DNA from: a virus
DNA: 10,162 nucleotides
Strand: one strand, 5' to 3'
Virus genome (UHGV): UHGV-0247313
The notes beneath the pieces are model-generated. The model searched no databases. It was given only the letters and a program-made list of their open reading frames with translations, and was not told the DNA's origin. The first letter of the stretch is position 1, and each line of letters begins with the position of its first letter. A program made the translations under genes and the position numbers. Shown piece after piece: positions 1-10,162 of this stretch.

Positions 1-241
1 TGATGGCATCGGGCTGGTTATCCCGCAGCCACAGCAAAACCGGGGCCATCAGCAGATTCTGGTCGCCGCTGAAATCCTCAATCACCGCGTTCAGGGTGTA
101 ACGGTACTCCCACGACATGGAGCTGGCCCCCGTGGCAACCAGCGAACCGTTATCCACAAACAGATGCAGTTTGTCCGGGTTATTGCGGACATAAGGCACC
201 GCTTTATTGAGGGCGTGGCGCAGGGATTGTGGTTTGTTCAC
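1..241 (-). CDS. R: Tail completion protein gpR-like, 5' part only (runs off the left edge)
   Basis: Minus-strand frame open from a GTG at 241..239, preceded by AGGAG 7 nt upstream, to position 1. Translation VNKPQSLRHALNKAVPYVRNNPDKLHLFVDNGSLVATGASS...LLWLRDNQPDAI resembles P2 gpR as I recall it. It overlaps the lysC 3' end, as in P2. Not in the ORF track because it has no stop in the window. Confidence 0.6.
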   Translation of the reverse strand, partial: MNKPQSLRHALNKAVPYVRNNPDKLHLFVDNGSLVATGASSMSWEYRYTLNAVIEDFSGDQNLLMAPVLLWLRDNQPDAI

Positions 242-494
242 TGTTTCGCTCCTGACACGCAATAATCATGTCCACTTTGTCTGCACAGACCGCCCAGGCG
301 GCCTCCGTTTCATCCAGCAACGCGTTCAGATCACCGTTAGTGCGCGGCGTTGCCTGATCCAGCCGACACGGCGTCACTCGCGGACAACCACTGACGGTAA
401 GCTGTACCTCCGGTGAGTGCCGGACGTTCCCGCAGCCGGATAATGTCAGCAGGCAAAGGAGTATCAGCCCAGCGGCGTAAATCCTCGTTCTCAC
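204..494 (-). CDS. lysC: o-spanin (Rz1-like outer-membrane lipoprotein), LysC-like
   Basis: 96 aa with a lipoprotein signal and lipobox (LLTLSGC). Starts inside lysB in another frame, the typical spanin arrangement. Confidence 0.8.
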   Translation of the reverse strand: MRTRIYAAGLILLCLLTLSGCGNVRHSPEVQLTVSGCPRVTPCRLDQATPRTNGDLNALLDETEAAWAVCADKVDMIIACQERNSEQTTIPAPRPQ

Positions 495-765
495 GTTTCA
501 GTTCCTCGATCCGGTGTTGTCGTTGTCTCAGCAGTGCACTGGTCTGTTCTGCTTCGGCATAGAGCCGCGCCTGCTCCCGGTTATTGGTTTCAGTCAGAAT
601 GGACAGGCTGATAAGCTGGCTGTTTTTCTTCGTCAGTTCCTGCGCTTTACTTTTCAGCGCCGCGCGCTGCGTTTCGATGGTGTGGCTGGCGCTGTTAAGC
701 CGCCACGACTGCCAGCCCAGCGCAACGAGTGCCAGCGCCACCACTACTGCCAGCGCACGCGTCAT
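337..765 (-). CDS. lysB: i-spanin (Rz-like), LysB-like
   Basis: 142 aa with an N-terminal transmembrane helix (ALAVVVALALVALGW) and a charged coiled-coil-like remainder. AAGGAG lies 8 nt upstream of the ATG at 765. Contains the embedded lysC. Confidence 0.8.
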   Translation of the reverse strand: MTRALAVVVALALVALGWQSWRLNSASHTIETQRAALKSKAQELTKKNSQLISLSILTETNNREQARLYAEAEQTSALLRQRQHRIEELKRENEDLRRWADTPLPADIIRLRERPALTGGTAYRQWLSASDAVSAGSGNAAH

Positions 766-925
766 AGTCCAGCTCCTTTAAGGCACCAGGCCATCTCCCG
801 CGCACGGCGGTTATCCAGCCCCTGATTAAACACACCTTTTACATAAACCCAGCGCGGCAACTGTCGGCACGCATCTGCCCAGCGCCGCTGATTGAGCAAT
901 TTCACCAGTGTGGAACTACAGGCAT
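766..925 (-). pseudogene. 3' remnant of an upstream lysis-module gene (lysA position), left by a deletion
   Basis: A minus-strand frame stays open through ...RRWADACRQLPRWVYVKGVFNQGLDNRRAREMAWCLKELDY* and stops 1 nt past the lysB start. It has no plausible start and abuts the O 3' end. Confidence 0.3.
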
Positions 926-1654
926 TGCCCGTTGCTGCTTCTGCAGAGCAGACTCCAGTTCAGACAGGCGTTCTTCCTGCTCAGACAGAGATTTTTCGGT
1001 TCGCGCGCTCAGGTTTTGCTGCTCAGTGGCGACCAGCTCCACGGCCTTATGCACATCAGAGAACCGGGCGTCATCGGACTGCTCTTTTTTGGTGAACAGC
1101 GCCGTGACGCGGGAAAACAGGGACGGTTTGTCGTCCTGGACTTCCTCCAGTTCGATCACCGTTTCCTCTGCAGCGGTAAAGAGATTGGCAGGATTCTGCT
1201 TGCGGTTTGCCAGCGGGTTATGGGCTGCACTGGCGCTGAATGTCAGCATTTCAGTGCCCAGACTGGCAGGGTCATCAGTGGCAGCCAGGCCGACCAGGTA
1301 GGCTTTGCCCGTATCAGCGAACTTCGGGCTGACTTCCATAGAGGTGAATAATTTCTGGCCTTTTTTCACCAGTTCCACCAGGGACTCCGTTGGCTCAACG
1401 TCGGCATACAGCGCCATCTTGCCTGCCAGCGGACCTTCCGTGATTTCCTCAGCAAACAGCGCCGTCACCTTGCCGTAGCGGTTAAAGGTGCTGTCCGGCA
1501 GATAAGACTTGATGTGCTCAAGGTTAATCAGCGCGGTATACACCGCCGGGTTGTAGCTGGCTGCCATCTGTTCCAGCCATTCACGCTGGATTTCGCGTCC
1601 GTCGGTGGTGGCACCTTCCACCCCGATGCGAAAACGCTTTGCTTTCACTGTCAT
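902..1654 (-). CDS. O: Capsid scaffolding protein gpO-like, probably 3'-truncated with a junction-derived C-terminus
   Basis: 250 aa. FRIGVEGATTDGREI...INLEHI...YLVGLAATDDPASLGTE...SDDARFSDVHKAVE matches the P2 gpO family. GGAG lies 8 nt upstream of the ATG. Shorter than P2 gpO as I recall it (about 284 aa); the last residues (RAMPVVPHW) look junction-derived. Confidence 0.85.
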   Translation of the reverse strand: MTVKAKRFRIGVEGATTDGREIQREWLEQMAASYNPAVYTALINLEHIKSYLPDSTFNRYGKVTALFAEEITEGPLAGKMALYADVEPTESLVELVKKGQKLFTSMEVSPKFADTGKAYLVGLAATDDPASLGTEMLTFSASAAHNPLANRKQNPANLFTAAEETVIELEEVQDDKPSLFSRVTALFTKKEQSDDARFSDVHKAVELVATEQQNLSARTEKSLSEQEERLSELESALQKQQRAMPVVPHW

Positions 1655-1732
1655 GAGCCGTGCTCCGTTAAAAAAAACTTACTGGAGCCTTATGGTTGCG
1701 GTGATGGGGGTAGTGAAACAATGCGCGGTATT

Positions 1733-1750
1733 TGTACCGACAACCACACA
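1733..1750. promoter_or_regulatory. Candidate Ogr/Delta-type late-activator site (TGT-N12-ACA) in the divergent O/P late promoter region
   Basis: TGTaccgacaaccacACA in the 142-bp O-P intergenic region. P2 late promoters carry TGT-N12-ACA dyads centred near -55. Confidence 0.4.
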
Positions 1751-1796
1751 AACCGCAGGCGGGGAAAGCCTTCATTCAAGGCTGTAGGTTTGTGCC

Positions 1797-3563
1797 ATGA
1801 ACACCACACTGACACCCGCAGATCTCGATCCCCGTCGGCAGGCCATGCTGCTGTACTTTCAGGGATACCGCGTAGCCCGCATTGCTGAAATGCTGGGCGA
1901 GAAAGTTGCAACCGTTCACAGCTGGAAAAAACGCGACAAGTGGGGTGACTATGGGCCGCTGGATCAGATGCAGCTCACCACCGCCGCACGCTACTGCCAG
2001 CTCATTATGAAGGAGCACAAAGAAGGGAAAGATTTCAAAGAGATTGACCTGCTGGCGCGCCAGTCGGAGCGCCATGCGCGGATCGGCAAGTTTAACAATG
2101 GCGGCAACGAAGCCGACTTAAACCCTAACGTCGCCAACCGCAACAAAGGCCCGCGTCGTCAGCCGGAAAAGAACGTTTTCACCGATGAACAGATTGAGAA
2201 GCTGGAAGAAATCTTCCATTCCTCCATGTTCAACTACCAGCGCCACTGGTGGGAAGCCGGAAAAACCAACCGCATCCGCAACCTGCTGAAGTCACGCCAG
2301 ATCGGCGCGACCTTCTATTTTGCCCGTGAAGCCCTGATTGACGCCCTGCTAACCGGGCGTAACCAGATTTTCCTTTCCGCCAGCAAGGCACAGGCCCACG
2401 TCTTTAAGCAGTACATCATCGACTTCGCCAAAGAAGTGGAGGTGGAGCTGAAAGGCGATCCGATAGTGCTTCCTAACGGGGCCACGCTGTACTTCCTCGG
2501 CACCAATGCCCGCACGGCCCAGAGTTACCACGGCAACCTGTATCTGGATGAATATTTCTGGATACCGAAATTCCAAGAGCTGCGCAAAGTGGCTTCCGGT
2601 ATGGCTATTCACAAAAAATGGCGACAAACCTATTTTTCCACGCCATCCAGCCTGACACACAGTGCTTATCCGTTCTGGTCCGGTGCGCTGTTCAACCGTG
2701 GGCGCAACAAAGCCGACAAGGTGGACATCGACCTGTCCCACAGCAATCTGGCCCCCGGCCTGCTGTGCACAGACGGGCAATACCGCCAGATAGTCACCGT
2801 GGAAGATGCGGTGCGCGGCGGCTGTAACCTGTTCGACCTCGACCAGCTACGCATGGAGTACAGCCCGGACGAATACCAGAACCTGCTGATGTGCGAGTTC
2901 GTGGACGATCTCGCGTCCGTGTTCCCGCTCAGCGAGCTGCAAGCGTGCATGGTGGACAGTTGGGAAATCTGGACCGACTTTCATGCACTGGCCCTGCGCC
3001 CGTTTGGCTGGCGCGAAGTGTGGATCGGTTATGACCCGGCAAAAGGTACGCAGAACGGCGACAGTGCCGGATGCGTGGTGGTGGCACCGCCAGCCGTGCC
3101 GGGTGGTAAGTTCCGCATTCTTGAGCGTCACCAGTGGCGCGGGATGGACTTCCGCGCCCAGGCTGACGCCATCAAAAAACTGACCGAGCAGTACAACGTG
3201 ACCTACATCGGCATCGACTCGACAGGTGTCGGCCACGGGGTTTACGAGAACGTGAAAGCGTTTTTTCCAGCCGTCCGGGAGTTTGTCTACAACCCCAACG
3301 TTAAAAACGCCCTGGTACTCAAGGCCTACGACATTATCAGTCACCGTCGTCTGGAGTTTGACGCCGGACACACCGACATAGCGCAGTCATTTATGGCAAT
3401 CCGTCGCGCCACCACCGCCAGCGGCAACCGCCCAACCTATGAAGCCAGCCGCAGCGAAGAAGCCAGCCATGCCGATCTGGCCTGGGCAACAATGCACGCA
3501 CTGTTTAACGAACCGCTGCAGGGCGAGTCCGCCAATACCAGCAATATTGTGGAGATTTTTTGA
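1797..3563 (+). CDS. P: Terminase large (ATPase) subunit gpP-like
   Basis: 588 aa, the size and family of P2 gpP. Divergent from O. Its stop overlaps the portal start (TGATG). Confidence 0.9.
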   Translation: MNTTLTPADLDPRRQAMLLYFQGYRVARIAEMLGEKVATVHSWKKRDKWGDYGPLDQMQLTTAARYCQLIMKEHKEGKDFKEIDLLARQSERHARIGKFNNGGNEADLNPNVANRNKGPRRQPEKNVFTDEQIEKLEEIFHSSMFNYQRHWWEAGKTNRIRNLLKSRQIGATFYFAREALIDALLTGRNQIFLSASKAQAHVFKQYIIDFAKEVEVELKGDPIVLPNGATLYFLGTNARTAQSYHGNLYLDEYFWIPKFQELRKVASGMAIHKKWRQTYFSTPSSLTHSAYPFWSGALFNRGRNKADKVDIDLSHSNLAPGLLCTDGQYRQIVTVEDAVRGGCNLFDLDQLRMEYSPDEYQNLLMCEFVDDLASVFPLSELQACMVDSWEIWTDFHALALRPFGWREVWIGYDPAKGTQNGDSAGCVVVAPPAVPGGKFRILERHQWRGMDFRAQADAIKKLTEQYNVTYIGIDSTGVGHGVYENVKAFFPAVREFVYNPNVKNALVLKAYDIISHRRLEFDAGHTDIAQSFMAIRRATTASGNRPTYEASRSEEASHADLAWATMHALFNEPLQGESANTSNIVEIF

Positions 3564-3979
3564 TGGGAAAGAGTAAGAAAAACCGCGCTGCGGCGACGAA
3601 CCAGATCCAGCATAAAAACCAAACTTCAGCCGAAGCATTCAGCTTCGGTGATCCCGTTCCTGTTCTGGACCGCCGCGAATTACTGGACTATGTGGAATGC
3701 GTAAAGATGGACCGCTGGTATGAGCCACCCGTAAGTTTTGACGGACTGGCGCGAACATTCCGCGCCGCCGTACACCACAGTTCACCGATTGCAGTAAAGT
3801 GCAACATTCTGACCAGCACCTACATCCCTCACCCGCTGCTCAGCCAGCAGGCGTTTTCACGTTTTGTGCAGGACTATCTGGTTTTTGGTAACGCCTACCT
3901 GGAGAAACGCACGAACCGATTCGGTGAAGTTATCGCCCTTGAGCCTGCGCTGGCAAAATACACCCGACGCGGATTAGAC

Positions 3980-4030
3980 GAACAGCGTGGCGGACTCGTT
4001 GAGCAGGGCGGATGGGATGGCAGAAAGATA
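3980..4030. repeat. Inverted-repeat arm, exact reverse complement of 4161..4211 (51 bp)
   Basis: Base-by-base comparison. A further 9-bp pair is 3971..3979 ggattagac and 4151..4159 gtctaatcc. Confidence 0.95.
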
Positions 4031-4160
4031 GCCGGGCAGGCCGTAGATCTCCTGGTTGATGTCCGGTTCCATCAGATGAAAAATGCTGCCTTTCGTGAAC
4101 TGATACGGCTGCGTGGTCATGCCGTATTGCACAAACCAGTAGGTATCTAGGTCTAATCCC

Positions 4161-4211
4161 TATCTTTCTGCCATCCCATCCGCCCTGCTCAACGAGTCCG
4201 CCACGCTGTTC
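4161..4211. repeat. Inverted-repeat arm in native orientation, partner of 3980..4030
   Basis: Encodes in-frame native portal sequence YLSAIPSALLNESATLF. Confidence 0.95.
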
Positions 4212-4657
4212 CGCCGAAAGTATTACATTAACGGTAGTCATGCAGGCTTCATCATGTACATGACCGATGCCGCGCAGAACCAGGAAGATGTGAACAACCT
4301 CCGCAATGCGATGAAAAGTGCCAAAGGCCCTGGCAACTTCCGCAACCTGTTTATGTACTCGCCTAATGGTAAAAAAGACGGACTTCAGATTATCCCGTTG
4401 TCAGAAGTCACAGCGAAGGATGAGTTTCTGAATATCAAGAACGTGAGCCGTGATGACATGATGGCGGCACACCGCGTGCCGCCGCAAATGATGGGAATTA
4501 TGCCTAATAATGTCGGGGGGTTTGGGGATGTGGAGAAGGCTAGCAAGGTATTCGTAAGAAACGAATTGATGCCCCTGCAGAAACGATTGCAGGAACTAAA
4601 TAACTGGTTGGACGAAGAAGTGCTCAATTTTTCAACCTATGAGCTTTAGTTTTAAAA

Positions 4658-4685
4658 CGAAGACCATTAGGTCTTCGCTTTATTT
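4658..4685. terminator. Bidirectional intrinsic terminator between convergent Q and the retron RT gene
   Basis: 8-bp stem cgaagacc/ggtcttcg with loop atta. T-rich tracts on both sides (ctttattt on plus; ttttaaa on minus). The RT stop codon sits in the loop. Confidence 0.6.
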
Positions 4686-5629
4686 AAAGGGTTCTTTCCA
4701 TATTTTTTTTCTAATTTGCTAATATAAGTTATTAATCTCCTATGGCTTTTTGAATCCACACTTAAAATAAATGACAACCATCCCCTAACGTGTTCTATCT
4801 CAGAAGACTTACCGCAAAATATATGATGTATCTTTGCTCTAATTTCTTTATATTTTTCTCTACCTATCCCAACTTTCTCTTGTGAAATAACTAAACCTGT
4901 AACTTTCCTCTGACTACGAGGCCCACTAATACAAGTTTTTTTTGAGTTAATAACCAATCCTTCACTTGGGATTATAGAAAATAAAAAATCACGTGCTTTA
5001 ACAACCTTTTTCATAGACTGTGCAGATAAGGTGAGATCATCGGCATATCTCGTATATATCAAGCCCCGACTACCTGCATAACCCTGAATACGATAATCAA
5101 GTTTAGAACATATTAGATTAGCTAATTTAGGTGATGATGGAGCACCTTGTGGTAGCAGATTTTTATAACAACATATTTTTGTCAAAACTGAAGATATTAG
5201 TCGATTATAACCAAGAGAATGGAACACTCCAAAAACTTTGTTAGCAGTTAAACTTGGGAAAAAATCCTCCAAATCAATATTCAGTATAAAGTTTGCCCCA
5301 ATATGCGGGGTAGCATTATTCAAAATAGATTGGTGCTTTTCAAATCCAATAGAAAAAGGAGATGACGACAGTTTATCTAAAATGTTACGTAGAACCCATC
5401 CTTGTAAGGCTTTAAGTTCTCGAGAAGGTTGGTAAATGGTTCTCATTCTCTTCTCTGGGCCTTTCTTTTCTACAGTGTAGATCCTATAGCGAAAATCAGC
5501 TGTATAGATTAACAACCGAAGTGTTTCAACAGATATGCGAGTCGCCTTAGACATGTCATGCAAATTGTTCATGACAGGTAGGCCGAGATTTCTCAATCTA
5601 AAAGTGTTCAAATATTCAGCGGATTTCAT
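4667..5629 (-). CDS. ret: Retron reverse transcriptase, Retron-Eco1 (Ec86)-type
   Basis: 320 aa with RT motifs: NIDLEDFFPS (motif A), LPQGAPSSPKLANL (motif B), YADD (motif C). Directly downstream of the msr-msd element. AT-rich unlike the flanking phage genes. Confidence 0.95.
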   Translation of the reverse strand: MKSAEYLNTFRLRNLGLPVMNNLHDMSKATRISVETLRLLIYTADFRYRIYTVEKKGPEKRMRTIYQPSRELKALQGWVLRNILDKLSSSPFSIGFEKHQSILNNATPHIGANFILNIDLEDFFPSLTANKVFGVFHSLGYNRLISSVLTKICCYKNLLPQGAPSSPKLANLICSKLDYRIQGYAGSRGLIYTRYADDLTLSAQSMKKVVKARDFLFSIIPSEGLVINSKKTCISGPRSQRKVTGLVISQEKVGIGREKYKEIRAKIHHIFCGKSSEIEHVRGWLSFILSVDSKSHRRLITYISKLEKKYGKNPLNKAKT

Positions 5630-5635
5630 GAAAGT

Positions 5636-5804
5636 TGCGCACCCTTACGTCAGAAAAAACGGGTTTCCTGGTTGGCTCGGAGAGCATCAGGCGATGCTCT
5701 CCGTTCCAACAAGGAAAACAGACAGTAACTCAGATTCAATGCAGGATGCCGAAACAACATCCAGAGGTTGACCTTAATGATAAACCTCTCGCTAAGGGTG
5801 CGCA
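5636..5804 (-). ncRNA. msr-msd: Retron msr-msd non-coding RNA (msDNA template), Ec86-type
   Basis: Flanked by 12-bp inverted repeats: tgcgcaccctta at 5636..5647 and taagggtgcgca at 5793..5804. Internal 10-bp perfect msd stem ggagagcatc/gatgctctcc at 5679..5702. Lies immediately upstream of the RT start. Matches the Ec86 msr-msd as I recall it. Confidence 0.85.
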
Positions 5805-6715
5805 TACGGAATCTTATCATAGTTAAATGTTGATTTTCTACGGTTTTCAAAATTCATAATCTCAAGCCGCAATCGGTCAAGTGTCTTTCTATCAAAGACG
5901 CTCCTAACATAGCTAGCCCCCAAAGCAGTGACCTGATAACCATCAGTCATTTGAAGTATTTTTCGTTCATTTATTAGACGAGAAACAACGGATCTAACAA
6001 TAATTTTAGATAAAACATCATCTTGCTTTATCGCTTTAAAAGCTAGTTCACACAGTGTGCGGTAGTTGACACTATCCAGTAAATAGATACAAGGCAATAG
6101 AAACCGCTCTGCGTATAATATATTTCCAATATCTTTTGATACTTTATTTTCTTTCCTAACCTTCTTAATAGATGCCATTAATTTTTTATATAATCGTAAT
6201 TTTCTGGCAACATCAATAGATGAATCACACATTTCTTTTAGTTCATTTGAACTACAACGCAAAACAGATTTTGAATTAAACTTACGCAACAGGCGAACAG
6301 GACCATAGTTAATAAAGCTACGTTTTGATTTAAATTTTGCATCTTGAATGCAAATCAACTTTCTCCTTAAGTTTTCATTATTAGAGAACGCACCAAGCTC
6401 TGTGAAAGACCCCGGACTTTCAGGAAATAAAATTATTACATCGACAGCTTCAGCCAGAATATTTTCTAAACTTAAAAGGCTATGCTGCCCTTGACCAGCC
6501 AAAAGATCATCAAATAGATCTTCTGGATAAAATATATCAACATCACTGAACTTTGCTAAAAATTGTGATAATTGATGACGCCAAGATTGATGATTAGCAA
6601 CGTCACCACCACATAGAAAAATGGTTATTTTAATATTAGCTCCTCGATAGAAGCCTTTCTTTGTGAGATGTCCTATAAGCTGTTGTTGCTGCTCATCGGT
6701 AAATTTTTTATTCAT
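5792..6715 (-). CDS. Retron effector: nucleoside deoxyribosyltransferase-like (NDT-like) N-terminal domain with a C-terminal putative DNA-binding domain
   Basis: 307 aa. N-terminal Rossmann-like motifs (ITIFLCGGD; VIILFPESPGSFTELGA). Upstream of and overlapping the msr a1 repeat. Same AT-rich composition as the RT gene. Confidence 0.8.
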   Translation of the reverse strand: MNKKFTDEQQQQLIGHLTKKGFYRGANIKITIFLCGGDVANHQSWRHQLSQFLAKFSDVDIFYPEDLFDDLLAGQGQHSLLSLENILAEAVDVIILFPESPGSFTELGAFSNNENLRRKLICIQDAKFKSKRSFINYGPVRLLRKFNSKSVLRCSSNELKEMCDSSIDVARKLRLYKKLMASIKKVRKENKVSKDIGNILYAERFLLPCIYLLDSVNYRTLCELAFKAIKQDDVLSKIIVRSVVSRLINERKILQMTDGYQVTALGASYVRSVFDRKTLDRLRLEIMNFENRRKSTFNYDKIPYAHP

Positions 6716-7187
6716 AATCTCCCCGCTTTTTTTTCTACTTTATACATCAAGTTATGAATAGATCCAATCTCCATACCACATGGCGCGCGCTCGTATCCCC
6801 GCCACGCCTGCCCGCTTTATGCAGTGGTTTTCATGCACATGCATAACATGAGCAAAAGCCCGCCAGTTCTGGCGGATCTGAGCAAAGACGATCCTCAATC
6901 GATCATGCGATTTCATGCAGCATAGTCATGCACTGTCAAGGAAGTGAAAATCCGTATCTGAATGGCCACTTGAAAAACGGATCATACGGGTTTACAAAGA
7001 TGAATGTTCGCTGTGAACGGGAAGCGGAAGTTAACTTTCAGATAACATAATCCATATGCACGAGAACCTCTAAAATAGAATGGGACACCTAAGCGGGGTA
7101 CTTACAACGATTCTTTCCATATTCACAGTTAACACTCTGTTTGGCGTATTTTTATTCAAATAGCAAACACCAATAAAAGGAGTTTCC

Positions 7188-7523
7188 ATGAACAATATTC
7201 CCCCTATACCACAGTTAGGAATTTATGTCTCAAAAATCGATCCCACCCTACGTATCACTGTAACCGATGTTGATATTGTTGATGGTGAGGATGATTCTCC
7301 TGATGATGAATTGTTTTATTTAGTCCACTGGATCGAGGGGGAAGATGAAAGTGATATGACAGCAATGGGATTTGAGCTAGACCCAGTAGAGTGGCAGGCT
7401 TTCGTTGAATCTGAGCAATTAGTGTTTGAGCGTGATCCGTACATGGATTCAATCCCCGAAAATTCAAACTTGGCAAAGATTCGGGATTTTCTCATGAAGA
7501 CTAAACAGAATGATCATTCGTAA
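7188..7523 (+). CDS. Hypothetical small, strongly acidic protein (111 aa)
   Basis: AAGGAG lies 7 nt upstream of the ATG. About 26 Asp+Glu against about 8 Lys+Arg by manual count. No family recognised. Confidence 0.6.
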   Translation: MNNIPPIPQLGIYVSKIDPTLRITVTDVDIVDGEDDSPDDELFYLVHWIEGEDESDMTAMGFELDPVEWQAFVESEQLVFERDPYMDSIPENSNLAKIRDFLMKTKQNDHS

Positions 7524-7677
7524 GTGTAAGCATCCATCAGGAAAATGGTTTTGTAAGTGAATCATCAACTTTTAGAGAGTCTCAGACACTCCCACTTCTG
7601 CTTCTGACACAAAGCGGACGATCACTTATCAAAATAACCGCCCACCTTACGCCTTATTTCACTCATTGCCCAAACTA

Positions 7678-7707
7678 GCCCCCATCAGAATGAATCCTCC
7701 TGGGGGC
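7678..7707. terminator. Possible weak hairpin terminator downstream of the DinI-like gene
   Basis: 7-bp stem gccccca/tgggggc with a 16-nt loop. Weak T-tracts on both sides. Confidence 0.2.
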
Positions 7708-7715
7708 AACATTTC

Positions 7716-7949
7716 TTAATGCAGCCAGCTGTCGTCCTCCCACACCTTCTGCATAATTTTCATCACTTGTTTTCTTTCTTCATCCAGTTGCAGTCCGGTT
7801 AGTTCCACACCGTTAGAGCTACCTTTGCGAATGCGAATTACCGTTTTGGGATACAGGGGGCGCAGATTGCGGTAAAGCTCGGATTCAAGGGCGTCCAGGG
7901 TAGACTGGCTAATCTTCTGCTCTTTATCGATCATTATTTCAATGCGCAT
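7716..7949 (-). CDS. dinI: DinI-like protein (SOS-response family)
   Basis: Start chosen at the internal ATG 7949..7947, preceded by AGGTGA with a 5-nt spacer. MRIEIMIDKEQKISQSTLDALESELYRNL...QKVWEDDSWLH has DinI family length and pattern. The track ORF 7716..8021 is a spurious 5' extension. Confidence 0.8.
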   Translation of the reverse strand: MRIEIMIDKEQKISQSTLDALESELYRNLRPLYPKTVIRIRKGSSNGVELTGLQLDEERKQVMKIMQKVWEDDSWLH

Positions 7950-7959
7950 AAAAGTCACC

Positions 7960-8148
7960 TCAGCTGATGACATCCATTGAGCGGTTGTATTCGTGGCTTC
8001 TGATTTTTGCCATGAGTTCATCAGTCAATTCAGAAACCCACTGCAGAGCCAGCCCCTTCTCTTCATCACTACACTCACTAGCCGCTACAAGCTTAAGAAA
8101 AAAATCAATGCGCTGGAGCTTCAAAGACTCCAAAAAATAGTCCTGCAT
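7960..8148 (-). CDS. Hypothetical 62-aa protein, first gene of the LexA-box operon
   Basis: AGGAGG lies 4 nt upstream of the ATG. Its stop overlaps the dinI-like RBS, suggesting coupling. No family recognised. Confidence 0.5.
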   Translation of the reverse strand: MQDYFLESLKLQRIDFFLKLVAASECSDEEKGLALQWVSELTDELMAKIRSHEYNRSMDVIS

Positions 8149-8188
8149 CTTTCCTCCTATGACACCAAAACAATACTGTATACATAAC

Positions 8189-8208
8189 CACTGTTTATAT
8201 TTACAGTA
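8189..8208. promoter_or_regulatory. LexA box (SOS operator) upstream of orf62 and the DinI-like gene
   Basis: caCTGTttatatttACAGta fits the CTGT-N8-ACAG consensus with an AT-rich spacer, about 40 bp upstream of the orf62 start. A second half-site tactgtata lies at 8174..8182. Confidence 0.65.
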
Positions 8209-8300
8209 TATAATAATCTTACTGATGTAAAACGTTTTTTTACGTTCATCGGCCTGATATGCCTGGTATTATTAAGAGCACGAATTGTCAACCCGCGTAA

Positions 8301-9746
8301 TTAATACAGGTTCCGCCACTTATCATCTTCCTTCAGACGCTGGTTCCGATAGAAGATACGCAGGCCTGCTCCTGACGGAATACTGCCGCCGCGAAGGAGC
8401 AAATCGACTTCTTTCTCGCTGCCATCAAATCCCCTGGACTTCAGTTCATAGACGAGCTGCTGTCGCTGATGGTCTGTAATTCGCTGTTTGTAGTCTTTAC
8501 GCCGTTTCGGTTTCACCTGGCGTAACCTTGCAGCCAGTTCCCGGCGCTCTTTTTTGCTCATACTGTGCAGGTAATTGTGCAACTCCTTGTCATTCATACG
8601 GGTAATATCCGTTCTGGAGTCCCCATCAGCTGATTTGTCTTTCCCTTGTTGGTTCAAATTTTCAGCAAGGGGACAGTTATTGCCACGAGTCCAAGGGGCG
8701 CAAGCGCCCTGGTCGGCTGCCGCCTCCTGAACGTCAACGGCCTTACGAACCATTTTCCACTTCACCGCATGAGTGCAGATCTTGCCCTCTGCAATGGGTG
8801 ACCAGATGCCATAAATACGAATACCGTGATCGCCATATGCGGTCGGTTCTTCGTTGATTTCATAAGCAGTTCTGATGAGGTGATATTTGCGGGGAACCAG
8901 TACGCCGCCCTGCTTCATGATGTAGGTGGCAAAACAACCAGCATCAGCAGCAGCCAGGATTGCATCAAGACGCGGGTTATCCAGTACCGGCGCACCTGCT
9001 TTTTTGTCACCCTGTTGCCTTGCCGCCTGACCAGCCAGCAATCGCAGTTCACGGTAAGCCTGACGCCCCGGAATGCCAAAGAAGCGGAATTGCTGAACAC
9101 GATGCAGAGACGCCCAGGCATTAACGTATTCAGCGTTATCACGCAGGGATTTACCCGTTTCCTTGCTGATCTCCCCAGCCAGACCACGCCCGTCAATGTT
9201 CTTACTGATGTATTTCGCGATATAGCTTGTTGGCGTACCTTTGCGCGGGTTTATCAGCTCAGACTTAAAGCGTGGTCCCGTGTTATTGCCCAGCTCCTCG
9301 CGGTCTTCACGGATGGCAAACTTACGCAGTAATGCAGTGATGGCGCGGCGGTCTTTTTTACGCATGAAACACATGAGATGCCAGTGCACAGTACCGTCAT
9401 GATGCGGCTCAGCTACCGCACCTGCAGCAACACGCCCGATCTCTGCGGTTGCACTCATGACGTAATGTGGCAGTTTCTCTTTTGCCACCTCATTAATCGG
9501 TACGCATGGCAGGCAGTGAATCTGAGCCAGAAAACCATCTACCAGCGTTGAATCTTCAGTCAGATCGGTAAGCAGCCAGATTTCTGGTGCGGTTAATAAA
9601 TGAGGTTGCGCTGGGTTCAACTTGTTCCGCAGAATCTGCACATTCATGCCAGCACGTTCTGCCAGTTGCACCAGGTTGTGGCGCAATGCGAATGCACGAC
9701 AGGCTTCATCAAAATGTGGATGTTTGGAAACTTGGTAATCAAACAT
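8301..9746 (-). CDS. A: In-frame fusion: CII-like regulator N-terminus (about 110 aa) joined to a P2 gpA-like rolling-circle replication nickase C-terminal region
   Basis: N-terminus [25 protein letters not shown]...[29 protein letters not shown] matches the phage CII (186 CII/CP76-like) family. It then switches to [15 protein letters not shown] (HUH motif) and [12 protein letters not shown] (paired catalytic tyrosines). The HUH motif sits near residue 120 here; in P2 gpA as I recall it sits far further in. Start taken at ATG 9746, as in the plus-strand copy at 10087. Confidence 0.75.
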
Positions 9747-9805
9747 GGTCAATGCCTCTGATGTATTTCAGAATCGAACTAATTAAGGTTTAGATTGCAT
9801 TCTGA
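9671..9805. repeat. Left arm of a 135-bp perfect inverted repeat (partner 10028..10162)
   Basis: Exact reverse-complement match over the full length, limited by the window end. Holds the cII-like start, the intergenic region and the last 9 codons of the 73-aa ORF. Confidence 0.95.
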
Positions 9806-9832
9806 TCATCATTAAACGAGGAATGTTGCATC

Positions 9833-10054
9833 ATGAGACCTAACATTTCAATCACTCTTACCACCCCTCATGTGACTATTGAACGCTATAGCGAGCTGAC
9901 AGGGCTATCCATCGATACCATCAATGACATGTTGGCTGATGGACGCCTTATCCGTCACCGACTGCGCAAAGATAAAAAACGCGAAAAAGTGATGATCAAC
10001 ATAGCAGCAATGACCGTTGATGCGCTTTCAGAATGCAATCTAAACCTTAATTAG
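9833..10054 (+). CDS. Small helix-turn-helix DNA-binding regulator (Apl/Cox-like?)
   Basis: 73 aa with an HTH-like segment ([23 protein letters not shown]) and a basic tail. Sits directly upstream of the plus-strand cII-like start, as apl/cox precedes cII/B in 186/P2-type early operons. Confidence 0.45.
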
Positions 10055-10162
10055 TTCGATTCTGAAATACATCAGAGGCATTGACCATGTTTGATTACCA
10101 AGTTTCCAAACATCCACATTTTGATGAAGCCTGTCGTGCATTCGCATTGCGCCACAACCTGG
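10028..10162. repeat. Right arm of the 135-bp inverted repeat (partner 9671..9805)
   Basis: Reverse complement of 9671..9805. It may extend past the window end. Confidence 0.95.
10087..10162 (+). CDS. CII-like regulator, 5' end only (second, plus-strand copy; runs off the right edge)
   Basis: ATG at 10087 with AGAGG upstream. [25 protein letters not shown] is identical to the N-terminus of the minus-strand fusion gene. Confidence 0.65.

What the first reader, a model, noticed from the sequence alone, without database searches (positions are those of the whole stretch)
4667..6715. Complete retron (effector, msr-msd, RT) of Retron-Eco1/Ec86 type carried as AT-rich cargo
Three adjacent minus-strand elements form a retron: an NDT-like effector (5792..6715), a structured non-coding region bounded by 12-bp inverted repeats (5636..5804), and a 320-aa reverse transcriptase with YADD and QGxxxSP motifs (4667..5629). 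The whole block is visibly AT-rich against the GC-rich phage genes. Retrons of this architecture are anti-phage systems; I recognise the RT and ncRNA as matching Ec86 from memory, so this is a known system, not a new one.
Basis: partly seen in the sequence, partly recalled or inferred. Interest (0 to 1): 0.75.

Follow-up and report, generated by a model that had tools for sequence, protein, structure and literature searches.

The report
Known retron Ec86 in defective prophage

Summary
On the minus strand lie a 307-aa effector (5792..6715), a 169-nt structured non-coding region closed by a perfect 12-nt inverted repeat (5636..5804), and a 320-aa reverse transcriptase (4667..5629).

Both proteins are 100% identical over full length to the solved Ec86 chains (7v9u/7v9x/8qbk). 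The DNA of 4600-6800 is 100% identical to BL21(DE3), REL606 and other B-lineage genomes.

The ncRNA shows the published Retron-Eco1 landmarks: the a1/a2 stem, a UAGC with the priming G directly after a1, a UUU-loop hairpin, and a long msd hairpin carrying the CCTGG Dcm site.

The block is 35% GC against 55% in the phage genes. It fills the variable slot between the portal gene and cos of a defective P2/186/Fels-2-like prophage, a published defence hotspot.

The mechanism comes from the literature. RT-msDNA and an N-glycosidase effector form filaments. Phage Dcm methylation of the msDNA activates NAD(P)+/adenine-nucleotide depletion and abortive infection.

Verdict: already known, low interest.

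Side observation: the window differs from every reference by two short reverse-oriented fragments (3980..4159 and 9806..10162). These are probably assembly artefacts and lie outside the retron.

The parts
5792..6715 (-). Effector gene, 307 aa: N-terminal NDT-like N-glycosidase domain plus C-terminal DNA-binding domain. The stop codon TAG lies at 5794..5792.
   Evidence: ORF. 100% identical to PDB 7v9x_C/8qbk. PADLOC NDT_II-A 2.7e-94. NCBIfam 'retron St85 family effector protein' 176.6 bits against a cut-off of 100. No Pfam hit.
5636..5804 (-). Retron ncRNA (msr-msd), 169 nt from a1 to a2. It overlaps the last 13 nt of the effector ORF and ends 6 nt before the RT start codon.
   Evidence: Perfect 12-nt inverted repeat. 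Fold -80.3 kcal/mol, z = -9.0. 100% identical in BL21(DE3) and in six IMG/VR contigs. Landmarks match the published Retron-Eco1 ncRNA description.
5793..5804 (-). a1 arm (UGCGCACCCUUA), inside the last codons of the effector gene.
5636..5647 (-). a2 arm (UAAGGGUGCGCA), 6 nt upstream of the RT start codon.
5792..5792 (-). Inferred priming (branching) guanosine: the G of UAGC directly after a1. It is also the last base of the effector's TAG stop codon.
   Evidence: Sequence. PMC11754653 places the priming guanosine immediately after a1, within UAGC. The position is inferred from that description and was not measured here.
5763..5789 (-). First msr hairpin (P2 of the published ncRNA).
   Evidence: MFE and centroid structure.
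5744..5762 (-). Second msr hairpin (P3), with UUU loop at 5752-5754. This is the published RT recognition loop.
   Evidence: Fold. PMC11754653.
5649..5734 (+). Approximate msd: the plus strand here reads in the sense of the 85-86-nt msDNA (GTCAGAAAAAACGGG...CTCAGA). The 5' end is set next to a2 and the 3' end by the published length.
   Evidence: Sequence. DNA fold -23.6 kcal/mol, z = -7.3. Length of 85-86 nt from PMC12673091. The exact ends are inferred from my recollection of the msDNA sequence.
5664..5717 (.). msd stem-loop (DSL / P4): 25-nt arms, 88% complementary, 4-nt loop.
5667..5671 (+). CCTGG, the only Dcm (CCWGG) site in the ncRNA region. It lies in the msDNA stem and is the published trigger site.
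   Evidence: Preprint 10.1101/2023.08.16.553469: mutating this motif abolishes defence.
4667..5629 (-). Retron reverse transcriptase, 320 aa, with YADD 195 and QGAPSSP 161.
   Evidence: 100% identical to PDB 7v9u_A. Pfam RVT_1 2.9e-25. PADLOC RT_II-A 7e-128. NCBIfam retron_St85_RT 287.6 bits against a cut-off of 235. RefSeq annotates a shorter 295-aa start, but the solved chains use the 320-aa form.
4658..4677 (.). 8-bp GC-rich hairpin (CGAAGACC-ATTA-GGTCTTCG) spanning the RT stop codon, between the convergent portal and RT genes. Likely a two-way terminator.
   Evidence: The terminator scan lists it on the plus strand. The minus-strand reading with a TTTT tail is visible. Function is inferred.
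4650..6782 (.). Extent of the low-GC cargo block (35.4% GC).
   Evidence: Fels-2 backbone homology ends at about 4607 inside the portal gene and resumes at 6783. In relatives the cargo differs at 0.3% of positions or fewer, while the flanks differ by 2-18%.
6790..6808 (-). cos-like 19-mer (GGCGTGGCGGGGATACGAG) inside the conserved backbone segment 6783-6931. This places the retron between cos and the 3' end of the portal gene.
   Evidence: One match with 3 mismatches to a degenerate P2/186 cos pattern that I wrote from memory, where 0.01 matches are expected by chance. The segment is conserved with Fels-2. Tentative.

Best explanation
The region is Retron-Eco1 (Ec86) itself, the type II-A3 retron of E. 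coli B/BL21. It is intact and sits as a low-GC cassette between the portal gene and cos of a defective P2/186/Fels-2-like prophage.

What is read from this sequence: the operon is read on the minus strand as effector, then ncRNA, then RT.

What is taken from published work on the identical sequence:
1. The ncRNA folds with a1 and a2 paired.
2. The RT recognises the UUU-loop hairpin and primes from the 2'-OH of the G just after a1.
3. It copies the msd part into an 85-86-nt msDNA that stays bound to the RT.
4. RT-msDNA binds the effector, which has an NDT-like N-glycosidase domain and a DNA-binding domain. The complex assembles into filaments that hold the effector in check.
5. A phage-encoded Dcm methylase methylates the CCTGG in the msDNA stem.
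6. This activates the effector, which hydrolyses NAD(P)+ and depletes adenine nucleotides. Phage replication stops by abortive infection.
For: - Identity: RT 320/320 and effector 307/307 identical to the solved Ec86 chains. DNA 4600-6800 is 100% identical in 48 of 5426 complete E. coli genomes; the 25 rows shown are almost all B/BL21 derivatives.
- Family models: PADLOC RT_II-A and NDT_II-A are the best hits. The NCBIfam retron St85-family RT and effector models both score above their cut-offs.
- ncRNA anatomy: perfect 12-nt a1/a2 repeat, two msr hairpins including the UUU loop, a long msd hairpin, fold z = -9.0. UAGC follows a1 directly. A single CCTGG lies in the msd stem.
- Gene order: 'effector-ncRNA-rrt', cloned from BL21(DE3) with its native promoter.
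- Classification: type II-A3.
- Mechanism: filament formation, NAD(P)+ hydrolysis and the Dcm trigger; adenine-derivative depletion.
- Context: the P2 hotspot between gpA and gpQ next to cos. Other genomes with the same flanks carry different cargo there. The cassette is at least 99.7% conserved while the flanks diverge by 2-18%.
Against: - No evidence contradicts the identification.
- Rfam gave no retron match even at E <= 10, so no curated RNA model supports the ncRNA. That support rests on sequence identity and structural landmarks.
- No promoter passing the scan's threshold lies upstream of the effector on the minus strand, so the transcription start is not located.
- Neither msDNA production nor phage defence can be tested here. 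Both are taken from the literature on the identical sequence.
- The downstream chemistry is not settled in the literature. NAD(P)+ hydrolysis, DNA ADP-ribosylation and adenine-derivative depletion have all been proposed.
Confidence: 0.97

Rival explanations
1. The RT belongs to a non-retron lineage (group II intron maturase, DRT/UG or Abi reverse transcriptase), and the neighbouring hairpins are incidental.
For: Weak cross-hits exist to group II intron RTs (PDB 6ar1 3.7e-05; TIGR04416 46 bits) and to Drt2/Drt3a (35-36 bits). This is expected for any RT.
Against: Those scores lie far below their cut-offs of 300, 390 and 200 bits. The retron model passes its own cut-off, at 287.6 against 235. 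The top 14 PDB sequences are all retron RTs, and identity to Ec86 is 100%. No intron RNA family was found by Rfam.
Confidence: 0.005
2. The retron is a decayed passenger. The prophage around it is defective, so the cassette may be silent or non-functional in this genome.
For: The prophage has lost the major capsid, small terminase, holin and lysozyme genes and has a cII-gpA fusion (compared with the intact relative). In this window the portal gene is also broken. No strong promoter was detected upstream of the effector.
Against: All three retron parts are identical to the locus that was cloned from BL21(DE3) with its native promoter and defends against phage. BL21(DE3) carrying the native operon is killed by Dcm expression, unlike the deletion strain. 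Relatives keep both ORFs open, with at most one amino-acid change each.
Confidence: 0.02
3. The system is the same, but the effector acts differently. Instead of killing by NAD(P)+ depletion, the activated effector mainly depletes adenine nucleosides/nucleotides or ADP-ribosylates DNA.
For: The Wang et al. preprint reports depletion of adenine and its derivatives after Dcm induction. PMC12673091 notes possible DNA ADP-ribosylation and says the detailed mechanism remains unclear.
Against: Structures show ADP-ribose bound in the effector, and NAD(P)+ hydrolysis by filaments is reported. The accounts may describe the same N-glycosidase chemistry acting on several adenine-containing substrates.
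Confidence: 0.3

Closest known systems
Retron-Eco1 (Ec86) of E. coli B / BL21(DE3), type II-A3
   Same: Everything tested is the same. The RT and effector are 100% identical. The DNA, including the ncRNA, is 100% identical. Gene order is effector-ncRNA-RT. The CCTGG Dcm site, UAGC priming motif and UUU loop are present. The prophage context is the same as in BL21(DE3), between ybjL and rcdA.
   Different: Nothing differs within 4160..9805. Outside the retron, the window carries two reverse-oriented fragments that are absent from all references.
Retron-Sen2 (St85) and other type II-A1 retrons, including the St85-family retron in E. coli PRO_A-1496-6W-A_ESBL (L004)
   Same: Both have an NDT-like effector with a DNA-binding tail paired with a retron RT, and the same NCBIfam families. 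The L004 retron occupies the same portal-proximal slot of a P2-like prophage.
   Different: The RT is only 31% identical. The effector is 42% identical over the NDT core alone. The RT clade differs, clade 1 against clade 9. In L004 the effector gene abuts the RT gene with a 1-bp gap, so the ncRNA cannot lie between them as it does in Ec86.
Retron-Eco2 (Ec67) and other defence cargo of the P2-like cos-proximal hotspot (P2 old/tin, PARIS and others)
   Same: The genomic niche is the same: variable defence genes between gpQ and gpA next to cos. Genomes sharing the window's flanks carry, among others, an Ec67-family retron, AAA ATPases, RES, SEFIR, TIR and AIPR genes there.
   Different: The proteins and mechanisms are unrelated or distant. 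The Ec67 RT matches at 4.5e-34 and is fused to a Toprim nuclease.

Membership tests
Retron (RT + msr-msd ncRNA + effector) | The reverse transcriptase belongs to the retron clade (YADD active site, retron-specific models). | tested here: met
   PADLOC RT_II-A 7e-128. NCBIfam retron_St85_RT 287.6 bits against a cut-off of 235. The top PDB hits are all retron RTs. YADD, QGAPSSP, NATPH and VTG are present.
Retron (RT + msr-msd ncRNA + effector) | A structured ncRNA lies directly upstream of the RT and is closed by a1/a2 inverted repeats. | tested here: met
   Perfect 12-nt inverted repeat ending 6 nt before the RT start codon. 15 of 5000 shuffles give such a repeat. Fold z = -9.0.
Retron (RT + msr-msd ncRNA + effector) | A priming guanosine lies immediately 3' of a1, and there is an msd stem-loop. 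| tested here: met
   UAGC directly follows a1, with the G at 5792. The msd hairpin spans 5664-5717.
Retron (RT + msr-msd ncRNA + effector) | The system produces 2'-5' branched msDNA. | not testable with these tools
   Shown in the literature and in cryo-EM structures for the identical sequence. Not measured here.
Retron (RT + msr-msd ncRNA + effector) | The ncRNA matches a curated RNA family model. | tested here: inconclusive
   Rfam 15 gave no retron family at the gathering score or at E <= 10. Only chance-level miRNA and leader hits appeared. Absence of a hit neither supports nor contradicts membership.
Type II-A3 retron / Retron-Eco1 (Ec86) | The effector has an N-terminal NDT-like domain and a C-terminal DNA-binding domain. 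| tested here: met
   PADLOC NDT_II-A covers residues 8-293. The protein is 100% identical to the PDB 'ribosyltransferase/DNA-binding protein'. Definition from Mestre et al..
Type II-A3 retron / Retron-Eco1 (Ec86) | Gene order is effector, ncRNA, RT on one strand. | tested here: met
   Coordinates. The published order is 'effector-ncRNA-rrt'.
Type II-A3 retron / Retron-Eco1 (Ec86) | Sequence identity to the reference Ec86 components. | tested here: met
   320/320 and 307/307 residues identical. 100% DNA identity to BL21(DE3) across 4160..9805.
Type II-A3 retron / Retron-Eco1 (Ec86) | A Dcm motif (CCTGG) lies in the msDNA stem-loop and acts as the trigger site. | tested here: met
   A single CCWGG in the ncRNA region, at 5667-5671 within the msd stem. 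The trigger function itself was not tested here.
Type II-A3 retron / Retron-Eco1 (Ec86) | The system gives anti-phage defence by abortive infection. | not testable with these tools
   Literature only.
Group II intron reverse transcriptase/maturase | The protein scores above the family cut-off and has an associated intron RNA. | tested here: not met
   TIGR04416 scores 46.4 bits against a cut-off of 300. No group II intron RNA was found by Rfam.
P2-like phage cos-proximal defence hotspot cargo | The cargo lies between gpQ (portal) and gpA, next to cos, and the content varies among related phages. | tested here: met
   The portal gene ends at 4649 and the gpA remnant starts at about 8301. A cos-like site lies at 6790-6808 (memory-based pattern). 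Other genomes and Fels-2 carry different cargo there. Definition.

The most novel reading that the evidence does not exclude
The layout could couple translation to ncRNA folding. a1 lies inside the last four codons of the effector gene, and the priming G is the last base of its TAG stop. a2 ends 6 nt before the RT start codon and contains the only purine-rich, Shine-Dalgarno-like stretch there (AAGGG).

On a single operon transcript, a ribosome finishing the effector would melt the a1:a2 stem and expose the RT ribosome-binding region. A folded a1:a2 stem, which is needed for priming, would hide it. Each transcript would then serve either as mRNA for the RT or as msDNA template, which could set the effector:RT:msDNA ratio.

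This is speculation from the sequence. I did not find it stated in the papers I read, but I did not search for it specifically.
Probability: 0.1. Interest if true: 0.3.

Novelty: already known. Interest (0 to 1): 0.08.

Why it matters
It matters little as a discovery. Ec86/Retron-Eco1 was the first E. coli retron described, has several cryo-EM structures, has an identified phage trigger, and is the standard retron for genome editing.

The check has three practical uses:
- It fixes exact coordinates for every functional landmark in this window.
- It places the cassette precisely in the portal-to-cos slot of the known P2-like defence hotspot.

It also shows that the cassette moves as a discrete module. 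It is at least 99.7% conserved while its flanks diverge by 2-18%.

Tried and rejected
- **Rfam.** Searches at the gathering score and at E <= 10 found no retron RNA family, so the ncRNA could not be confirmed with a curated covariance model.
- **Pfam.** It gives no domain for the effector. The NDT-like assignment rests on PADLOC, NCBIfam, PDB identity and the literature.
- **Genome-contig search with the RT.** This returned only a 534-bp contig of coverage 1.2 in an Alkalicoccobacillus assembly, 99% identical. It yielded no distant relatives and therefore no covariation test of the ncRNA.
- **IMG/VR contigs.** The six contigs carrying the retron all have an identical ncRNA. The cassette is so conserved that this says nothing for or against the structure.
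- **Published sequence search.** A full-text search for the ncRNA sequence found no paper. The primary papers (Mol Cell 2024, Cell Rep 2024) are not held. I used the bioRxiv version and later papers that summarise them.
- **Promoter.** The scan found no minus-strand site upstream of the effector at its threshold. By eye there is a weak TTGGAT-17-TATAAA upstream of the start, and I do not claim it.
- **Source of the rearranged window.** The exact product of the broken portal ORF is not on record. The junction 30-mer is absent from JGI metagenomes.
- **Group II intron or DRT identity.** Considered and rejected on scores.
Full report
**Observation**

The minus strand of the window carries, in transcription order:
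- a 307-aa ORF at 5792..6715;
- a non-coding stretch at 5636..5804;
- a 320-aa ORF at 4667..5629.

The RT ORF has YADD at residue 195 and QGAPSSP at 161. It also has NATPH (105) and VTG (243), which I recall as retron-typical motifs.

The non-coding stretch is closed by a perfect 12-nt inverted repeat, 5636-5647 / 5793-5804. Inside it lies a hairpin with 25-nt arms, 5664-5688 / 5693-5717.

A perfect 12-nt repeat at such spacing appeared in 15 of 5000 dinucleotide shuffles of the 341-nt region. It is the only natural one in the whole window.

As RNA, the 169 nt fold at -80.3 kcal/mol. Shuffles average -46.0, giving z = -9.0.

GC content is 35.4% over 4650-6782 and 55.5% over the phage late genes 1-4649.

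**Identity**

- The RT is identical at 320 of 320 residues to PDB 7v9u_A, 'RNA-directed DNA polymerase from retron EC86'. The following hits are other retron RTs (Ec67, Kva2, Ec83, Ec78, Eco8). Group II intron RTs appear only near 1e-5.
- The effector is identical at 307 of 307 residues to 7v9x_C/8qbk, 'Retron Ec86 putative ribosyltransferase/DNA-binding protein'.
- PADLOC's best models are RT_II-A (7e-128) and NDT_II-A (2.7e-94).
- The NCBIfam retron St85-family RT and effector models both pass their cut-offs. The group II intron, Drt2 and Drt3a models fall far short.
- Pfam sees only RVT_1 in the RT and nothing in the effector.
- The DNA of 4600-6800 is 100% identical in 48 of 5426 complete E. 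coli genomes. The rows shown are almost all B-lineage laboratory strains such as BL21(DE3), REL606, C41, C43 and T7 Express.
- Window 4160..9805 aligns to BL21(DE3) without a single difference.

This is therefore not merely an 'Ec86-type' retron. It is Ec86.

**Anatomy of the ncRNA**

The predicted fold gives four elements:
- the a1:a2 stem;
- a first msr hairpin at 5763-5789;
- a second msr hairpin at 5744-5762 with a UUU loop at 5752-5754;
- the long msd hairpin at 5664-5717.

A mutational scan of the Retron-Eco1 ncRNA (PMC11754653) reports two positions that tolerate little change. One is the priming guanosine immediately after a1, within UAGC. The other is the UUU recognition loop of stem-loop P3.

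Both landmarks are present here. a1 (UGCGCACCCUUA) is followed by G-C, so the inferred priming G is base 5792. That base is also the last base of the effector's TAG stop codon.

a2 ends 6 nt before the RT start codon.

The plus strand 5649-5734 reads GTCAGAAAAAACGGG...CTCAGA. This matches my recollection of the 86-nt msDNA and folds as DNA at z = -7.3. A later paper gives 85 nt from the structures, so the ends I give are approximate.

The stem contains the only CCWGG in the region, CCTGG at 5667-5671.

Rfam offered no retron model match even at E <= 10. The ncRNA assignment therefore rests on sequence identity to the published locus and on these landmarks, not on a curated covariance model.

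**Mechanism**

These steps are taken from the literature on the identical sequence and were not tested here.
- The unit cloned from BL21(DE3) with its native promoter is described as 'effector-ncRNA-rrt'.
- The RT-msDNA complex binds the N-glycosidase effector and forms filaments able to hydrolyse NAD(P)+.
- A phage-encoded Dcm methylase is the trigger. It methylates the CCTGG of the msDNA stem-loop, and mutating that motif abolishes defence.
- BL21(DE3) with the native operon does not tolerate Dcm expression, unlike the deletion strain.
- The preprint reports depletion of adenine and its derivatives after activation.

Steps read from this sequence are the presence, order and integrity of all parts and of the Dcm site. 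Steps that are inferred are transcription from upstream of the effector, the priming position, and everything biochemical.

**Context**

The surrounding genes are those of a P2/186/Fels-2-like prophage:
- LysC/LysB;
- capsid scaffold gpO (902..1654, minus strand);
- terminase ATPase gpP (1797..3563);
- portal gpQ (from 3563);
- a DinI-like gene (7716..8021);
- a remnant that fuses the N-terminus of a 186-type CII protein to the C-terminus of gpA (8301..9752).

In BL21(DE3) the prophage lies between ybjL and rcdA. It lacks the major capsid, small terminase, holin and lysozyme genes that an intact relative has, so it is defective.

Rousset et al. defined a defence hotspot in P2-like phages between gpA and gpQ, next to cos. 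The retron sits in that hotspot.

Backbone homology to Fels-2 stops inside the portal gene at about 4607 and resumes at 6783. A cos-like 19-mer lies at 6790-6808 (the pattern was written from memory). The retron therefore fills the slot between cos and the 3' end of the portal gene.

In that slot Fels-2 has an unrelated 565-aa gene. Another E. coli has a different St85-family retron there, with 31% RT identity. Other genomes with the same flanks carry Ec67-type retrons and AAA ATPase, RES, SEFIR, TIR, AIPR and other genes somewhere between the portal gene and gpA.

No phage record in the phage collection carries this retron at the DNA level. The nearest phage RTs are about 32% identical.

**Cassette behaviour**

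Six IMG/VR contigs contain the retron. Four of them (L005, L006, L009, L010) diverge from the window; L007 and L008 are identical to it across this span.
- In L006, L009 and L010 the 490 bp at the portal 3' end differ at 9-32 positions (2-6.5%).
- In all four the 152-bp cos segment differs at 15-28 positions (10-18%).
- In L006, L009 and L010 the 2066-bp stretch 4650-6715 that holds the retron differs at only 2-6 positions (0.3% or less). L005 covers this stretch only from 5216 and has no difference there.
- The ncRNA does not differ at all.
- Both ORFs stay open, with at most one amino-acid change each.

The cassette thus looks like a recently shared module in diverged phage backbones. This fits the hotspot literature and adds nothing new in kind. 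With so little divergence, no covariation test of the ncRNA was possible.

**Things outside the finding**

The window is not co-linear with any reference. Two fragments are reverse-complemented relative to BL21(DE3):
- 3980..4159, corresponding to L001 19433..19612;
- 9806..10162, corresponding to L001 25072..25428 (the reverse alignment starts one base earlier, at 9805 = 25429).

Each fragment overlaps its neighbours in reference coordinates, by 9 and 52 bp for the first and by 135 bp for the second.

The first fragment splits the portal gene into two ORFs. That gene is intact in RefSeq.

Fels-2 and all six IMG/VR contigs have the reference orientation. No complete E. coli genome covers more than 95% of the window. 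The broken portal product is not on record, and the junction is absent from JGI metagenomes.

The junctions are blunt and the overlaps were left untrimmed. This looks to me like short contigs concatenated in the wrong orientation rather than biology, but I cannot prove it.

**Verdict**

The system is already known in full, including solved structures and an identified trigger. Interest is low.

Noticed in passing
window 3980..4159 (junctions 3979/3980 and 4159/4160): A 180-bp fragment inside the portal gene is reverse-complemented relative to BL21(DE3), Fels-2 and all IMG/VR relatives. It overlaps its neighbours by 9 and 52 bp in reference coordinates, a net gain of 61 bp. This splits the portal gene into ORFs 3560..4150 and 4254..4649 and creates a 52-bp inverted repeat (3980-4031 / 4160-4211). 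The junctions are blunt. Probably an assembly or scaffolding artefact.
   Followed up: partly
window 9806..10162: The window ends in a fold-back. After reference position L001 25206 it continues with the reverse complement of 25429..25072. The Apl/Cox-like 73-aa gene (9833..10054) is therefore inverted, and 9671-9805 is repeated in inverted form at 10028-10162. This is absent from all references examined.
   Followed up: partly
window 8301..9752 (minus strand): A single 483-aa ORF fuses the N-terminus of a 186-type CII regulator (Pfam Phage_CP76, residues 12-115) to the C-terminal part of replication protein gpA (Phage_GPA, residues 113-189). By comparison with the intact prophage L004, this deletion removed fil, DUF5347, DUF2732, TraR/DksA, the Dam methylase and most of gpA. 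RefSeq marks both halves as pseudogenes.
   Followed up: partly
window ~762..932: The lysis genes LysC/LysB abut a lysozyme fragment, which abuts the 3' end of scaffold gene gpO. The major capsid, small terminase, head completion, tail X, holin and most of the lysozyme genes of an intact relative (L004 1262-4828) are missing. The prophage cannot make particles.
   Followed up: partly
window 7188..7523 (plus strand), within the variable segment 6932..7717: A 111-aa, very acidic ORF sits in a second variable slot, on the other side of cos from the retron. RefSeq calls it hypothetical in BL21, and a homologue elsewhere is annotated DUF8087. It has no Pfam, NCBIfam or PADLOC hit. Fels-2 and L004 carry unrelated genes in this slot. 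Function unknown. Acidic small proteins in such slots are sometimes DNA mimics, but that is only a thought.
   Followed up: partly
window 7716..8021 and 7960..8148 (minus strand): A DinI-like (Tum-like) gene and a conserved 62-aa hypothetical gene lie next to the gpA remnant. Both are conserved at about 91-97% in Fels-2, Klebsiella and E. coli P2-like phages. RefSeq uses a shorter 77-aa start for the DinI-like gene.
   Followed up: no
L004 8648..10631 (E. coli PRO_A-1496-6W-A_ESBL): An intact P2-like prophage carries a different St85-family retron in the same slot after the portal gene (RT 31% identical, effector 42% identical over the NDT core). Its effector and RT genes are only 1 bp apart, so its ncRNA must lie elsewhere, presumably upstream of the effector. 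I did not locate it convincingly.
   Followed up: partly
L003 (NZ_VLXZ01000042.1, Alkalicoccobacillus porphyridii assembly): A 534-bp contig of coverage 1.2 encodes residues 120-296 of the Ec86 RT at 99% identity. This is most likely E. coli BL21 contamination of that genome assembly.
   Followed up: no
L007 (IMGVR_UViG_3300019790_000026) 1..2888: This metagenome-derived contig is 100% identical to the window where it aligns. It has its own deletions and one reverse-oriented 302-bp piece (window 1361..1662) in the gpO/gpP region. Rearranged pieces in assemblies of this prophage are therefore not unique to the window.
   Followed up: no
window 5792..5804 and 5630..5647: The a1 arm lies within the last codons of the effector gene, and the inferred priming G is the G of its TAG stop. 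The a2 arm contains the only Shine-Dalgarno-like purines upstream of the RT start. Folding of the ncRNA and translation of the two genes might therefore interfere with each other on one transcript.
   Followed up: partly
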